Origin: Tequatrovirus LF73P3
Sequence record: OZ035756.1
Direction: 5' to 3' (one strand)
DNA: 64,000 nt
Numbering within the stretch: the first letter of the stretch is position 1; the number at the start of each line of letters is the position of its first letter. A model generated the notes under the pieces. It was given only the letters and a program-made list of their open reading frames with translations, did not search any database and was not told where the DNA came from. Below, in pieces: positions 45,441-48,357 of this stretch. Made by a program: the position numbers and the translations under genes.

Positions 45441-45742
45441 CTTGCGGCAACCTTGTCGGGGTTCCACCTGCTAAGGCAAGTGTTTGTACGAAACGCCGGG
45501 ATTCGAACCCGGTTATTAAGCAGTTGACGCTACTCAATATTTTTAAAAGGCCATATCTCGACCATATCCGAACGTTCCGTCAAAAACGCTACTCGGCTTA
45601 CGGCAAAGATATTTCCTCGAATCGATAATTCGATGCGCCGTTTCTGCTGTGATAGTAAAGAATCAGAACACAGTAAAACTGTGGGAGAAACTATACTCCA
45701 GGGAACATCAGTCCGACGACTTACCGGTAGCGACCCGGTTTC
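45441..45742 (-). ncRNA. Structured small stable RNA region (candidate equivalents of T4 species 1/species 2 RNAs, rnaC/rnaD)
   Basis: No convincing ORF on the transcribed strand; tRNA-like T-arm (CCGGGTTCGAATCCCGG), several hairpins, repeated GAGTAGCGT motif; lies downstream of tRNA-Arg as in T4. Confidence 0.4.
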
Positions 45743-46093
45743 TTAATATTCTTTTAAAGCATCAATCTGTTCACGACGTTTACGCCATAAATCAATTGCT
45801 TCATACGCAGATTCAGCATTTCGAATTGGACGGCATTTATATAAAGACTTGTGATTTTGATATTGTGTAGATAATGGAATTTTATCTAAAAGGTCTTTAC
45901 GTTCAAAGTATTCGTAACCATCTAAACCAAATGAACGATTTTTGAGAAATTGCCAATGACCATATTCATTTTCGACATAAACATAATCCGCGTGTTGATA
46001 AAGCAAATTAATTACACGTTCAGAAATAACAGTGTCATTGTGATTAAAATAAAATGTTAAATCATGAACTACTAAATAAACATTACCTTTCAT
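45743..46093 (-). CDS. Hypothetical protein (116 aa) between tRNA-Arg and the stable-RNA region
   Basis: Good RBS (GAGGAAAAT-ATG) 17 nt downstream of tRNA-Arg 3' end. Confidence 0.5.
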   Translation of the reverse strand: MKGNVYLVVHDLTFYFNHNDTVISERVINLLYQHADYVYVENEYGHWQFLKNRSFGLDGYEYFERKDLLDKIPLSTQYQNHKSLYKCRPIRNAESAYEAIDLWRKRREQIDALKEY

Positions 46094-46109
46094 ATTTTCC
46101 TCACTTAAT

Positions 46110-46186
46110 TGGTCGAGGCAGTAGGGATCGAACCTACGACCTAGGACTTAGAAGGTCCTTGCTCTTCCTTCTGAGCTATGCCTCGT
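46110..46186 (-). tRNA. tRNA-Arg (anticodon UCU)
   Basis: Manual fold: acceptor CGAGGCA/UGCCUCG, anticodon loop CUUCUAA, T-arm GGUUCGAUCC, encoded CCA. Confidence 0.8.
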
Positions 46187-46188
46187 AG

Positions 46189-46854
46189 TTAAAATTTCAT
46201 TTTTCGACCTTTAAACCATCCTTCTGGAATTGGGTCAGTTTTCTTAATACGTTTAGAAACTTTTTCATCTAATGAATGAATCCACATCATACCAAATTGG
46301 GAATTCTTTTCACCTTTTTGGTGATTATTTTTAGCGTGAATTTCTTTCATTTTATTAATAGTTTCAAGAGTATGATGCTTATTTAAAAATCGGCTATTAT
46401 TTAAAAATTTTTCTTTGTATTCAGGAGTTGACCACAAACGTTTAAATACATTTGAACCATTTTTACGATATTTTTCTTGAAGTAAAATATCATTTTTAAA
46501 ACGTGACTTAAACGATTTAGCTCCTTTTAAACTAGCGTCTTTCTTCTGATTTAGCATCTCAGGAATATTTATATGATCCCATCCACCTTCACCGCCAAGT
46601 TTTAAATTATACACATCAGGTCTATTTAAAAACTCTTCTGTGACAATATTTTTCTCGGCTTCAAGCATAGATTCTTTATCGTCAAAATATTCTAATATTT
46701 CTTTAGAAAAATTTTCTATACCATACCTGTCTTGGGCTCTTTTTAATAATTTACCAGAACCCATATATCCATCATCTAAATTTTCGGTAGAATGCACACC
46801 AATATAAATTTTATTATTAATTTTATTTGTTATTTTATAAAGATAAAAATGCAT
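46189..46854 (-). CDS. segB: GIY-YIG homing endonuclease SegB
   Basis: GIY-YIG module (FYLYKITN...KIYIGVH); lies between tRNA-Arg and the main tRNA cluster as T4 segB does; start set at MHFYLYK to avoid overlapping the adjacent tRNA. Confidence 0.75.
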   Translation of the reverse strand: MHFYLYKITNKINNKIYIGVHSTENLDDGYMGSGKLLKRAQDRYGIENFSKEILEYFDDKESMLEAEKNIVTEEFLNRPDVYNLKLGGEGGWDHINIPEMLNQKKDASLKGAKSFKSRFKNDILLQEKYRKNGSNVFKRLWSTPEYKEKFLNNSRFLNKHHTLETINKMKEIHAKNNHQKGEKNSQFGMMWIHSLDEKVSKRIKKTDPIPEGWFKGRKMKF

Positions 46855-46900
46855 ATCAGTCCCTAATAAAGAACTGAGCGTCTCACGACGAGTCATAAAT

Positions 46901-46987
46901 TGGTGGGGAGTGATGGAGTCGAACCACCCGAGTCGCAATGACAATGGATTTACAGTCCACACCGCTACCTCTACGGGATAACTCCCC
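46901..46987 (-). tRNA. Type II tRNA-like gene, anticodon apparently GUA (Tyr)
   Basis: Manual fold: perfect acceptor GGGGAGU/ACUCCCC, anticodon loop CUGUAAA, long variable arm resembling E. coli tRNA-Tyr, T-arm GGUUCGACUCC, encoded CCA; D-arm pairing ambiguous. Confidence 0.55.
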
Positions 46988-46996
46988 TAATTAATT

Positions 46997-47073
46997 TGGT
47001 GACCCAGACCAGATTTGAACTGGTAACCTTTCCCTTATGAGGGGACTGCTGCTAACCATTGAGCTACAGGGCC
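46997..47073 (-). tRNA. tRNA-Ile (anticodon CAU)
   Basis: Anticodon loop CUCAUAA, T-arm ACCAGUUCAAAUCUGGU, encoded CCA; D-stem weak. Confidence 0.7.
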
Positions 47074-47074
47074 T

Positions 47075-47150
47075 TGGTGCTGATTGACGGAATCGAACCG
47101 CCGACATCCTCATTACAAGTGAGGCGCTCTACCTACTGAGCTAAATCAGC
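47075..47150 (-). tRNA. tRNA-Thr (anticodon UGU)
   Basis: Acceptor GCUGAUU/AAUCAGC, anticodon loop CUUGUAA, T-arm GGUUCGAUUCC, CCA. Confidence 0.85.
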
Positions 47151-47152
47151 AA

Positions 47153-47239
47153 CGGAGGCGATAGGATTTGAACCTATGAGTCGCCGGAGCGACTGCCGGT
47201 TTTCAAGACCGGTGCATTAAACCACTCTGCCACGCCTCC
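47153..47239 (-). tRNA. tRNA-Ser (anticodon UGA), CCA not encoded
   Basis: Begins GGAGGCGUGGCAGAG..., anticodon loop CUUGAAA, long variable arm; matches T4 tRNA-Ser as I recall it. Confidence 0.85.
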
Positions 47240-47241
47240 AG

Positions 47242-47315
47242 TCTCCGCGGCAGGATTTGAACCTGCGACATTCTGCTCCCAAAGCAGACACTCTACCAAA
47301 CTGAGCTACACGGAG
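47242..47315 (-). tRNA. tRNA-Pro (anticodon UGG), CCA not encoded
   Basis: Anticodon stem-loop UCUGC-UUUGGGA-GCAGA; separated by ~2 nt from tRNA-Ser (dimeric precursor arrangement). Confidence 0.8.
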
Positions 47316-47325
47316 TAAATTAAAT

Positions 47326-47399
<74 letters not shown>

Positions 47400-47404
47400 A
47401 AATT

Positions 47405-47491
47405 TGGTGCGAGAAGTGGGACTCGAACCCACAAGGAAATCATTCCGCAGCATTTTAAGTGCTGTGTCTTTACCAATTTGACCATTCTCGC
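47405..47491 (-). tRNA. tRNA-Leu (anticodon UAA)
   Basis: GCGAGAAUGGUCAAAUUGGUAAAG..., anticodon loop ACUUAAAAU region, long variable arm, CCA. Confidence 0.85.
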
Positions 47492-47492
47492 G

Positions 47493-47565
47493 CTGGGAAT
47501 AAAGGACTCGAACCTTTGCATCTAGCAGTCAAAGTGCTATGCCTTACCAACTTGGCTAATTCCCA
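47493..47565 (-). tRNA. tRNA-Gln (anticodon UUG), CCA apparently not encoded
   Basis: Acceptor UGGGAAU/AUUCCCA, anticodon stem-loop UAGCA-CUUUGAC-UGCUA; abuts tRNA-Leu. Confidence 0.8.
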
Positions 47566-47662
47566 ATTATTAACAAAGGCTCTCTAACAAGAACCCTTGA
47601 TGATAGAGGGTATTAATCAGTGCGATATGAGTTAATAATAACAAATAATTCTTAAAGCATAT

Positions 47663-47950
47663 TTACCATTTATGATAATACATATTTACGATGCATTCAA
47701 GACCCAAAGGATTCTTGAAAATATCATATTCAAGAGGACCTTTTTCTGTTTCAATAAAGAAATCAAAATTTACTGTATTAAATTTACGGTCTTCCTTTAC
47801 TAATTTAACTTGAGAAGATGAACGGTCAGTGTAAACCTTTTCAACTTCAAAACATGTTAAAATGCCATAATCATCAATCAAGGCTTTAGCTGCTTCTTGA
47901 TCATATTTATATCCATTTTCAATGGATGATACTTTCGCATAAAGAATCAT
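47663..47950 (-). CDS. Hypothetical protein (95 aa)
   Basis: ORF downstream of tRNA cluster. Confidence 0.4.
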   Translation of the reverse strand: MILYAKVSSIENGYKYDQEAAKALIDDYGILTCFEVEKVYTDRSSSQVKLVKEDRKFNTVNFDFFIETEKGPLEYDIFKNPLGLECIVNMYYHKW

Positions 47951-47952
47951 TA

Positions 47953-48357
47953 TTAACCTTTATCAACAATAGTATGTGTATGGGCATTTACGATTTGCCA
48001 CCAATCGAAACTATCGCCAAATCGTTTTGATTTATTGTCTTCAATAATTTGGCGTAATTCATCTTCTGTTTCAGCATACGCAATCAAATCATCATATCCA
48101 CCGCAAGGATAGTAATTATCGCCTGCGAACAAAAGAAAATTTACTTTAGATGGGTCTACATAATAATGCTCTTTAGGATATTTAGTTCCTCTCCAATCAG
48201 TTACTTCAACATAACGATAAGAAAATCCATTTTTACTTTCAATCCAACTCCACGCTTCAAAAGGAGTATTAAAAACTTTATCAGGTATTAAATTACCTTC
48301 AAAATGAGAAGGATTTGCATAATCCCCGGCATAAACATAATATTCGTTAATACTCAT
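47953..48357 (-). CDS. Hypothetical protein (134 aa)
   Basis: ORF. Confidence 0.4.
   Translation of the reverse strand: MSINEYYVYAGDYANPSHFEGNLIPDKVFNTPFEAWSWIESKNGFSYRYVEVTDWRGTKYPKEHYYVDPSKVNFLLFAGDNYYPCGGYDDLIAYAETEDELRQIIEDNKSKRFGDSFDWWQIVNAHTHTIVDKG

What the first reader, a model, noticed from the sequence alone, without database searches (positions are those of the whole stretch)
46901..46987. Ninth tRNA-like gene (type II, anticodon GUA/Tyr-like) between segB and tRNA-Ile
The canonical T4 set, as I recall it, is eight tRNAs (Gln, Leu, Gly, Pro, Ser, Thr, Ile, Arg), and all eight are present here in the T4 order. An additional 87-nt element has a perfect 7-bp acceptor stem, encoded CCA, a consensus T-arm (GGUUCGACUCC), anticodon loop CUGUAAA and a long variable arm resembling E. 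coli tRNA-Tyr. Its D-arm does not pair cleanly, so it could be a functional tRNA-Tyr, a pseudo-tRNA, or a processing/recombination relic next to the homing endonuclease gene.
Basis: partly seen in the sequence, partly recalled or inferred. Interest (0 to 1): 0.55.

Follow-up and report, generated by a model that had tools for sequence, protein, structure and literature searches.

The report
Known phage tRNA-Tyr gene beside segB
The extra "ninth tRNA" is a real, full-length phage tRNA-Tyr gene already known from phages RB3, T2 and T6, where it helps the phage survive bacterial enzymes that destroy the host's tRNA-Tyr, so the finding is correct but not new.

Summary
Window 46901-46987 (- strand) holds an 87-nt tRNA-Tyr(GUA) gene exactly as described. 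ARAGORN calls it and Rfam tRNA scores it 30.2 bits, just above the cut-off of 29. It is 100% identical to the annotated tRNA-Tyr of phage RB3 and 85/87 identical to that of T6. It lies upstream of segB as in T6; T4 lacks it. The "unclean" D-arm comes from the register used. Across 22 distinct family members, a D-stem CCGU/GCGG shifted by two bases pairs in 22/22 sequences, with one compensatory change. ARAGORN's register pairs in 62.5% of cells, and its C·C is unpaired in all 22. The cost is an unusual 4-nt acceptor-to-D connector in place of the usual 2. Published work on T6 (PMC13096335) shows this tRNA is expressed, is cut by Septu PtuAB at C48 of the variable arm, and rescues the phage when over-expressed. 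SegB amplifies a 718-bp tRNA-Tyr-segB unit through microhomology. The window has the same variable arm, an intact SegB ORF, and ATTAG repeats exactly 718 bp apart. Verdict: observation confirmed, functional tRNA-Tyr reading supported, pseudogene and relic readings rejected, already known. The conserved 4-nt connector is the only possibly undescribed detail.

The parts
46901..46987 (-). tRNA-Tyr(GUA) gene, 87 nt with encoded CCA. In linear numbering p, the window coordinate is 46988-p. Acceptor 1-7/77-83, connector 8-11 (UAUC), D-stem 12-15/23-26 (CCGU/GCGG), D-loop 16-22 (AGAGGUA), U27, anticodon stem 28-32/40-44, anticodon loop 33-39, variable arm 45-59, T-stem 60-64/72-76, T-loop 65-71, discriminator A84, CCA 85-87.
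   Evidence: ARAGORN; Rfam tRNA 30.2 bits; 100% identical to the RB3 tRNA-Tyr and 85/87 to T6; family covariation.
46951..46953 (-). Anticodon GUA (linear positions 35-37) within the loop CUGUAAA, which is identical to the loop of E. coli tyrU.
46962..46980 (-). D-arm in the supported register: 4-nt connector UAUC (46980-46977), a stem of C-G, C-G, G-C, U.G (46976-46973 with 46965-46962), and a canonical loop AGAGGUA.
   Evidence: This register pairs in 22/22 family members, with a CG->UA compensatory change in T5 and Sugarlandvirus. The ARAGORN register pairs in 62.5% of cells. Cloverleaf energy is -27.5 vs -20.8 kcal/mol.
46929..46943 (-). Long variable arm UGUCAUUGCGACUCG, identical to those of T6 and T5. 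C48 (window 46940) is the position reported as the Septu PtuAB cleavage site in the T6 tRNA-Tyr.
   Evidence: cleavage site from PMC13096335
46189..46854 (-). segB, a free-standing GIY-YIG homing endonuclease of 221 aa, with Y17 and G19 present. It starts 46 nt downstream of the tRNA-Tyr CCA.
   Evidence: ORF and translation; Pfam GIY-YIG 26.1 bits vs cut-off 22.6; 98.6% DNA identity to T6 across tRNA-Tyr plus segB
46987..46991 (-). ATTAG microhomology at the 5' edge of tRNA-Tyr (the last base is G1 of the tRNA).
   Evidence: exactly 718 bp from the second copy
46269..46273 (-). ATTAG microhomology inside the 3' part of segB. Together with the copy at 46987-46991 it defines a 718-bp unit equal to the tandem repeat unit reported in T6 Septu escapers.
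   Evidence: 718-bp unit and C-terminally truncated SegB in PMC13096335
46997..47565 (-). Upstream tRNA array Gln-Leu-Gly-Pro-Ser-Thr-Ile(CAU). tRNA-Tyr follows it after a 9-nt spacer and has no promoter-like site of its own.
46110..46185 (-). tRNA-Arg(UCU) downstream of segB. Its sequence is the RB3/UGKSEcP1 type, not the T4/T6 type.

Best explanation
It is a functional, phage-encoded class II tRNA-Tyr(GUA), the orthologue of the accessory tRNA-Tyr of T2L, RB1, RB3 and T6. It is most likely transcribed as the eighth member of the polycistronic tRNA cluster (inferred). It is then processed at G1 and at the encoded CCA and charged by the host TyrRS, whose bacterial identity elements (G1-C72, A73, G34 U35 A36, long variable arm) are all present in the sequence. 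This adds to the Tyr-tRNA pool. Its best-documented benefit is in hosts that carry PtuAB-type nucleases (Septu, Retron-Eco7), which deplete host tRNA-Tyr by cutting the variable arm. The phage copy has the same UGUC|AU site as the T6 copy, so it is probably cleavable too and protects by dosage as a supplement or decoy, not by resistance. The adjacent SegB endonuclease, together with ATTAG microhomologies 718 bp apart, provides a way to amplify the tRNA-Tyr-segB unit in tandem under such pressure. Shown here: gene, structure, orthology and anatomy. Taken from the T6, SP15 and T5 literature: expression, cleavage, rescue and amplification. Inferred: that this particular phage behaves the same way.
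For: ARAGORN call and fold. Rfam tRNA above the gathering score. 100% identity to the RB3 tRNA-Tyr and 2 pairing-preserving differences from T6. Same gene order Ile-Tyr-segB-Arg as T6, with 98.6% identity over 812 bp. 390 phage records carry copies at >=95% identity, mostly annotated tRNA-Tyr. Family covariation: 98.1% of cells paired, 16/24 pairs with double changes, 0/500 shuffles. The D-stem pairs 22/22 in the shifted register, which is 6.7 kcal/mol better. The variable arm is identical to T6 with C48 in place. The SegB ORF is intact with a GIY-YIG domain and Y17/G19. ATTAG repeats are exactly 718 bp apart. PMC13096335 reports that the T6 tRNA-Tyr is seen on northern blot, that over-expression rescues T6 from Septu, that the tRNA-region deletion is more sensitive, that the tRNA is cut at C48, and that amplification of the 718-bp unit depends on SegB. 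PMC11555353 reports that anticodon or stem mutations of a T5-like phage tRNA-Tyr abolish rescue, so the translation function is required.
Against: No experiment exists for this exact phage. The Rfam score is marginal (30.2 vs 29). Single-sequence MFE folding does not give a cloverleaf (z = -0.91). The 4-nt connector between acceptor and D stems is non-canonical and its effect on folding, RNase P or TyrRS is unknown. The T6 paper describes the T6 tRNA-Tyr as relatively unstable. The scan found no promoter-like site directly upstream of tRNA-Tyr; six sites in the 2-kb region is no more than the shuffles give (6.9), and only one, at 47700-47672, lies upstream of the array. T4 grows well without this gene, so it is accessory. 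Higher Tyr demand (4.6% of codons) could by itself select for it.
Confidence: 0.8

Rival explanations
1. It is a working tRNA-Tyr whose selective value is simply translational supply. The AT-rich, Tyr-rich phage proteome needs more Tyr-tRNA than the host provides late in infection, and the anti-defence effect is incidental.
For: Tyr codons make up 4.6% of 15,219 codons in the window's 61 long ORFs, and 77% of them are UAU. The tRNA sits in the same operon-like array as the classical codon-compensating T4 tRNAs. The family is widespread in unrelated large lytic phages.
Against: The anticodon and anticodon loop are the same as the host's tyrU, so it adds no new decoding capacity, unlike the other eight tRNAs, which read codons that are rare in the host. 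T4 lacks it. The T6 paper reports T4 as strongly restricted by Septu and unable to escape, T6 as intermediate and T2 as resistant, in line with which phages carry tRNA-Tyr, and a direct rescue phenotype is documented.
Confidence: 0.15
2. It is a pseudo-tRNA or decaying relic left by SegB-driven recombination and is not used in translation.
For: In the canonical register the D-stem has a C.C mismatch. Rfam scores it barely above threshold. ARAGORN fails to call three homologous copies in other phages. Real chimeric relics occur next to segB in phage OES_C-1.
Against: The gene is full length with perfect acceptor, anticodon, variable and T stems. All helices covary across 22 distinct relatives from many phage families. 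The D-stem pairs perfectly in the shifted register, with a canonical A14/G18G19/A21-type loop. The differences from T6 are G-C/G-U exchanges inside stems. The T6 orthologue is expressed and active.
Confidence: 0.03
3. Its main role is at the DNA level. It acts as a SegB recognition or landing site and recombination substrate that promotes homing of segB, and the RNA product is irrelevant.
For: SegB recognises the conserved T-arm motif of tRNA genes and cuts inside the T2L tRNA-Tyr gene among others (PMC2330249). segB here replaces exactly the tRNA-Asn that follows tRNA-Tyr in RB3; homology with RB3 ends 5 nt after the CCA. The region is a mosaic of T4/T6-type and RB3-type segments.
Against: The exact SegB-enhancing motif RAWTSGAAC is found in the Thr and Gly T-loops but not in tRNA-Tyr. 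A DNA-only role would not maintain compensatory base changes in every helix or the anticodon across unrelated phages that lack segB.
Confidence: 0.02

Closest known systems
Phage T6 tRNA-Tyr (AP018814.1 66468-66554), the SegB-amplifiable anti-Septu tRNA of Chihara et al. 2026 (PMC13096335)
   Same: 85/87 nt identical. Same position between tRNA-Ile(CAU) and segB, same variable arm with C48, same 46-nt spacer to segB, and the same ATTAG microhomologies giving a 718-bp unit.
   Different: Two substitutions: anticodon-stem C41 here vs U in T6, and T-stem U75 here vs C in T6. Both are G-C/G-U exchanges. T6 lacks tRNA-Pro and tRNA-Ser and has the T4-type tRNA-Arg. The window keeps Pro and Ser and has the RB3-type Arg.
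tRNA-Tyr(GUA) of phages RB3, RB1 and T2L (AJ884578, AJ884577, AJ880101; Brok-Volchanskaya et al. 2008, PMC2330249)
   Same: The RB3 gene is 100% identical and follows the CAU tRNA after the same 9-nt spacer.
   Different: In RB3 it is followed by tRNA-Asn and then tRNA-Arg, with no segB. Here segB occupies the place of tRNA-Asn. The upstream CAU tRNA is a different isoacceptor in RB3.
T5 / SP15 (Demerecviridae) tRNA-Tyr, the anti-Retron-Eco7 tRNA (PMC11555353, PMC12673091)
   Same: Same family. T5 is 85% identical and is identical from the variable arm through the T-arm. It has the same shifted D-arm architecture, with a compensatory CUG/CAG stem. The T5 record notes that it becomes an efficient amber suppressor when its anticodon is changed.
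   Different: In T5-like phages it is driven by a strong promoter of its own. SP15's copy has a longer, different variable loop that makes it resistant to Retron-Eco7 cleavage. The window/T6 type keeps the GUCAU site and relies on dosage.
E. coli chromosomal tRNA-Tyr (tyrU, tyrT, tyrV)
   Same: Class II tRNA with an identical anticodon loop CUGUAAA, G1-C72, A73, a GUC/GAC variable-arm stem and encoded CCA.
   Different: The host has the canonical 2-nt connector, a 3-bp CCC/GGG D-stem with an 11-nt loop, and a 13-nt variable arm. There is no BLAST-detectable similarity: 0 chromosomal hits in 5,426 E. coli genomes even at E<=10.

Membership tests
tRNA (Rfam RF00005) / bacterial class II tRNA-Tyr | Score at or above the Rfam gathering threshold, and a call by a tRNA predictor | tested here: met
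   30.2 bits vs 29 (marginal). ARAGORN calls tRNA-Tyr(gta) at 46901-46987.
tRNA (Rfam RF00005) / bacterial class II tRNA-Tyr | Cloverleaf helices (7-bp acceptor, 5-bp anticodon stem, 5-bp T stem, long variable arm) supported by covariation | tested here: met
   98.1% of cells paired, 16/24 pairs with changes on both sides, 0/500 shuffles; slid controls pair in 42-54% of cells.
tRNA (Rfam RF00005) / bacterial class II tRNA-Tyr | Canonical geometry: 2 nt (U8, N9) between the acceptor and D stems, with the D-stem at positions 10-13/22-25 | tested here: not met
   The canonical register gives a C.C that is unpaired in all 22 relatives, and 62.5% pairing overall. The conserved D-stem lies 2 nt further 3', leaving a 4-nt connector (5 nt in Kanagawavirus and Phapecoctavirus copies). 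This is a deviation of the whole family, not a defect of this copy.
tRNA (Rfam RF00005) / bacterial class II tRNA-Tyr | Anticodon GUA in a 7-nt loop with U33 and A37 | tested here: met
   The loop is CUGUAAA, identical to E. coli tyrU.
tRNA (Rfam RF00005) / bacterial class II tRNA-Tyr | Bacterial TyrRS identity elements (A73, G1-C72, U35/G34, long variable arm; from established tRNA identity rules) and actual aminoacylation | tested here: inconclusive
   All the sequence elements are present. Charging itself cannot be tested with these tools. Indirect support comes from the T5 homologue, which works as an amber suppressor after an anticodon change (record note).
Accessory T-even tRNA-Tyr (T2L/RB1/RB3/T6 orthologue group) | Near-identical sequence at the syntenic position after the CAU tRNA of the tRNA cluster | tested here: met
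   100% identity to RB3 and 97.7% to T6, with the same 9-nt spacer.
SegB-amplifiable anti-Septu tRNA-Tyr module (T6 type) | Full-length tRNA-Tyr immediately upstream of an intact, catalytically competent segB | tested here: met
   46-nt spacer; 221-aa ORF with a GIY-YIG domain and Y17/G19.
SegB-amplifiable anti-Septu tRNA-Tyr module (T6 type) | [quoted passage not shown] | tested here: met
   ATTAG at 46991-46987 and at 46273-46269, spacing exactly 718 bp.
SegB-amplifiable anti-Septu tRNA-Tyr module (T6 type) | Expression, PtuAB cleavage at C48, dosage-dependent rescue and SegB-dependent amplification | not testable with these tools
   Shown for T6 only (PMC13096335). Here only the identical variable arm and the same anatomy can be shown.
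tRNA-Sec (Rfam RF01852) | Score at or above the gathering threshold, anticodon UCA, 8-bp acceptor stem | tested here: not met
   34.4 bits vs a gathering score of 47; the anticodon is GUA and the acceptor stem is 7 bp.
tRNA pseudogene / recombination relic | Truncation, chimerism or loss of helix complementarity | tested here: not met
   The gene is full length and all helices are intact. Contrast the Gly/Tyr chimera in OES_C-1.

The most novel reading that the evidence does not exclude
The family-wide 2-nt (sometimes 3-nt) expansion of the linker between the acceptor and D stems is a selected, phage-specific structural signature. It is conserved from T4-like, T5-like, rV5-like and FelixO1-like phages to E. 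coli phage-plasmids and Enterococcus phages, and it is absent from the host tRNA-Tyr. It could alter recognition by a host tRNA nuclease or a processing or modification enzyme while keeping TyrRS charging. It would also explain why predictors score these genes poorly or miss them. I found no description of it in the papers I read.
Probability: 0.2. Interest if true: 0.4.

Novelty: already known. Interest (0 to 1): 0.2.

Why it matters
The gene shows that this phage belongs to the T-even lineages that carry the tRNA-Tyr-segB module. From the T6 work, that predicts partial, dosage-dependent and evolvable resistance to Septu and Retron-Eco7-type tRNA-Tyr nucleases, which T4 lacks. This is useful for predicting host range or choosing therapeutic phages, but it adds no new biology. 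The one new detail is structural. The whole phage tRNA-Tyr family uses a shifted D-arm with a 4-5-nt connector, and this causes marginal Rfam scores and missed annotations in some genomes.

Tried and rejected
(1) Single-sequence MFE folding gives a non-cloverleaf structure at -29.3 kcal/mol with z = -0.91. This is uninformative, as is common for tRNAs. (2) In the permissive Rfam run, tRNA-Sec was the best clan member at 34.4 bits, below its gathering score of 47. I rejected it: the anticodon is GUA and the acceptor stem has 7 bp. (3) The promoter and terminator scan of 46000-48000 found 6 promoter-like sites against 6.9 expected from shuffles, and none directly upstream of tRNA-Tyr. There is therefore no evidence for a dedicated promoter. 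(4) I searched for a host origin. There were no chromosomal matches in 5,426 E. coli genomes. Only 6 matches to the D-arm/anticodon pattern turned up in 185,579 species genomes, all on MAG or draft contigs, two of which (L137, L141) carry dense phage-like tRNA arrays. No bacterial donor was identified. (5) I tested an extra D-stem pair between the fourth connector base and base 27. It is not conserved as a pair across the family by inspection of alignment A1, so I rejected it. (6) The exact SegB-enhancing motif RAWTSGAAC is absent from tRNA-Tyr and occurs only in the Thr and Gly T-loops nearby. (7) The first literature searches failed on term length and were repeated.

Full report
**Observation.** The - strand of window 46901-46987 reads GGGGAGUUAUCCCGUAGAGGUAGCGGUGUGGACUGUAAAUCCAUUGUCAUUGCGACUCGGGUGGUUCGACUCCAUCACUCCCCACCA. 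ARAGORN calls it tRNA-Tyr(gta) at exactly these coordinates. It is the eighth gene of an array Gln-Leu-Gly-Pro-Ser-Thr-Ile(CAU)-Tyr, followed by an ORF and then tRNA-Arg. Rfam's tRNA model matches at 30.2 bits against a gathering score of 29 (E = 0.028 for the window). The other eight tRNAs score 54-75 bits. ARAGORN's own drawing shows the D-stem UCCC/GCGG with a C.C mismatch.

**Is it known?** Yes. A 121-nt query around the gene finds 1,368 phage records, 390 of them at >=95% identity, and most annotate it as tRNA-Tyr.
- The gene is 100% identical to the tRNA-Tyr(GUA) annotated in the RB3 tRNA cluster (AJ884578) and to that of Salmonella phage GRNsp7.
- It is 85/87 identical to the T6 gene. 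The two differences (C vs U in the anticodon stem, U vs C in the T stem) are G-C/G-U exchanges that keep pairing.
- T4 has no such gene: tRNA-Ile is followed directly by segB.
- The 2008 SegB paper sequenced the T2L, RB1 and RB3 clusters. It reported extra tRNA genes, including tRNA-Tyr, in phages that lack segB, and SegB cleavage sites inside the T2L tRNA-Tyr gene (PMC2330249).
- The arrangement seen here, with tRNA-Tyr immediately upstream of segB, is that of T6, Yersinia phage PST, GRNsp7 and others. At least 23 records cover the whole tRNA-Tyr-plus-segB query.

**The D-arm.** I collected relatives from IMG/VR contigs and from named phages:
- T6, T5 and a Vequintavirus
- a Kanagawavirus and a Phapecoctavirus
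- a Sugarlandvirus and a Felixounavirus
- Klebsiella phage Roth80
- an Enterococcus Kochikohdavirus

Twenty-two distinct sequences were aligned (A1). They share the core acceptor(7) + UAU-N + CCG-U + A-R-..-GG-.-A + G-CGG.

Counting pairs gives a clear answer. In the register C-G, C-G, G-C, U.G, shifted 2 nt 3' of ARAGORN's, the D-stem pairs in 22/22 sequences. One pair shows a compensatory CG->UA change, in T5 and the Sugarlandvirus. In ARAGORN's register only 62.5% of cells pair, and the C.C is unpaired in all 22.

For the window sequence, the cloverleaf with the shifted D-stem evaluates to -27.5 kcal/mol against -20.8 for ARAGORN's. The shifted register also gives a textbook D-loop, AGAGGUA, with A14, R15, G18, G19 and A21 equivalents.

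The price is a 4-nt linker (UAUC) between the acceptor and D stems instead of the universal 2 nt. The linker is 5 nt in the Kanagawavirus and Phapecoctavirus copies. This deviation probably explains the marginal Rfam score. It may also explain why ARAGORN fails to call the Kanagawavirus, Phapecoctavirus and Enterococcus-phage copies.

The whole cloverleaf is strongly supported. 98.1% of cells pair, 16 of 24 pairs change on both sides, 0/500 shuffles reach the observed values, and slid controls pair in 42-54% of cells. The "unclean D-arm" is therefore a property of the family's architecture, not decay of this copy.

**Relation to the host tRNA.** E. coli tyrU has the same anticodon loop, G1-C72, A73, a GUC/GAC variable stem and CCA. 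It differs in having a 2-nt connector, a 3-bp CCC/GGG D-stem with an 11-nt loop, and a 13-nt variable arm.
- The phage gene has no BLAST-detectable similarity to any E. coli chromosome.
- All 273 matches in 5,426 complete genomes are on plasmids.
- The one example I examined is a 120-kb replicon with a ligase, a CobT-like gene and an Asn-Tyr-Thr-Ser tRNA cluster, and it looks like a phage-plasmid.
- A scan of one genome per species (185,579 species) for the D-arm-plus-anticodon pattern found six contigs, all MAG or draft assemblies. Two of them (L137, L141) carry arrays of 19 and 15 tRNAs.

The lineage is essentially phage-borne and is shared by unrelated phage families. T5 is identical to the window from the variable arm through the T-arm.

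**Local anatomy.** An alignment of the window with T6, T4, RB3 and UGKSEcP1 shows a mosaic:
- The CAU tRNA is the T4/T6 type.
- tRNA-Tyr is the RB3 type, and homology with RB3 ends 5 nt after the CCA. There RB3 continues with tRNA-Asn, the preferred SegB target, while the window and T6 continue with a 46-nt spacer and segB.
- The first codons of segB are the T6 type (MHFYLYK), not the T4 type (MFYYTYK).
- tRNA-Arg is the RB3/UGKSEcP1 type.

SegB is an intact 221-aa ORF with a GIY-YIG domain (26.1 bits vs cut-off 22.6) and with the residues Y17 and G19 that were mutated to inactivate T6 SegB. ATTAG occurs at 46991-46987, overlapping G1 of the tRNA, and again at 46273-46269 inside the 3' part of segB, exactly 718 bp apart.

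**Mechanism.** This part comes from the literature and is transferred by orthology. Chihara et al. 2026 (PMC13096335) report the following for T6:
- Septu EcB88 (PtuAB) restricts T4 strongly and T6 moderately, and it cuts E. coli tRNA-Tyr at C48/A49 of the variable arm during infection.
- The T6 tRNA-Tyr is detected by northern blot, appears relatively unstable, and is itself cut at C48.
- Over-expression of the T6 tRNA-Tyr rescues T6, and deleting the tRNA region sensitises it.
- Escape mutants carry tandem repeats of a 718-bp unit made of tRNA-Tyr plus a segB lacking 28 C-terminal codons. The repeats form by microhomology between the tRNA 5' end and the segB 3' region and depend on SegB catalysis.
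- T4, which has SegB but no tRNA-Tyr, cannot escape.

Two further papers bear on the T5-like phages. In SP15, anticodon or stem mutations of the phage tRNA-Tyr abolish rescue from Retron-Eco7, so decoding function is needed (PMC11555353). SP15's copy resists cleavage through a longer variable loop (PMC12673091).

The window's variable arm UGUCAUUGCGACUCG is identical to T6's, with C48 at window 46940. I therefore infer that this copy is a cleavable, dosage-dependent supplement or decoy, not a resistant variant. Its flanks are pre-arranged for the same 718-bp amplification.

No promoter-like site lies directly upstream of the gene. That fits expression from the polycistronic cluster, but the scan is weak evidence.

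**Alternatives.**
- A pure supply role is plausible and not exclusive. Tyr makes up 4.6% of 15,219 codons in the window's long ORFs, and 77% are UAU. However, the anticodon duplicates the host's, unlike the other eight tRNAs.
- A pseudogene or relic reading is rejected by full length, covariation and the T6 data. A genuine relic looks like the OES_C-1 locus, where the 5' part of tRNA-Gly is fused at the T-loop GTTCGA to the last 18 nt of tRNA-Tyr, right upstream of segB.
- A purely DNA-level role as a SegB site is unlikely. The exact SegB-enhancing motif is absent from tRNA-Tyr, and the RNA structure is conserved in phages without segB.

**Verdict.** The element is already known and was recently characterised experimentally in T6. 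The only possibly undescribed point is the conserved 4-5-nt acceptor-D connector of the whole phage tRNA-Tyr family, which I found no mention of in the papers read. Interest is low (0.2).

Noticed in passing
L134 (Escherichia phage OES_C-1, PQ553088.1) about 860-930: A chimeric tRNA relic lies directly upstream of segB. The 5' part of tRNA-Gly is fused at the T-loop GTTCGA to the last 18 nt of tRNA-Tyr (CTCCATCACTCCCCACCA). Everything from Pro to the 5' part of Tyr is deleted, and ARAGORN does not call it. Three sister records (SH-2, OES_C-2, OES_C-3) show the same truncated match.
   Followed up: partly
window 46110-47073 compared with L001, L002, L004, L133: The tRNA/segB region is a mosaic. 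The CAU tRNA and the segB N-terminus are T6/T4-like, tRNA-Tyr is RB3-identical, and tRNA-Arg and the sequence after it are RB3/UGKSEcP1-like rather than T4/T6-like. This is consistent with repeated SegB-associated gene conversion.
   Followed up: partly
window 45743-46093 (-) and 45485-45744 (-): A 116-aa ORF with no Pfam match sits between tRNA-Arg and the homologues of the stable RNAs rnaD/rnaC (88% identity to T4/RB3). In T4, T6 and RB3 those RNAs follow tRNA-Arg directly. The same ORF is annotated as a hypothetical protein in GRNsp7, UGKSEcP1 and OES_C-1.
   Followed up: partly
L135 (E. coli plasmid NZ_CP117972.1) 3921-4618: In complete E. coli genomes the phage-type tRNA-Tyr occurs only on plasmids: 273 places in 269 genomes at 90-94% identity, and none on chromosomes. 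The example examined is a 120-kb phage-plasmid-like replicon with an Asn-Tyr-Thr-Ser tRNA cluster next to a DNA ligase and a CobT-like gene.
   Followed up: partly
L130 (Enterobacter phage ZX14), L131 (Escherichia phage ECO340P2), L129 (Enterococcus phage KEN04): ARAGORN does not call these clear homologues of the tRNA-Tyr. The first two have a 5-nt acceptor-D connector. ECO340P2's record leaves the gene unannotated. The Enterococcus copy has UGCGA instead of UUCGA in the T-loop and no encoded CCA.
   Followed up: partly
L137 and L141 (MAG contigs from Bacteroidales and Clostridiales bins): These contigs carry dense arrays of 19 and 15 tRNA genes within a few kb, including one with a 4-base anticodon call (tgaa). 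They carry the same tRNA-Tyr D-arm type and are probably phage DNA binned into bacterial MAGs.
   Followed up: no
window 47090-47098 and 47341-47349: Exact matches to the published SegB-enhancing motif RAWTSGAAC lie in the T-loops of tRNA-Thr and tRNA-Gly. There are 7 matches in the whole 64-kb window.
   Followed up: no
L004 (T6, AP018814.1) 501-1792: T6 lacks tRNA-Pro and tRNA-Ser, which the window and T4 have. The AP018814 record labels segB as a serine recombinase, which appears to be a mis-annotation of a GIY-YIG endonuclease.
   Followed up: no
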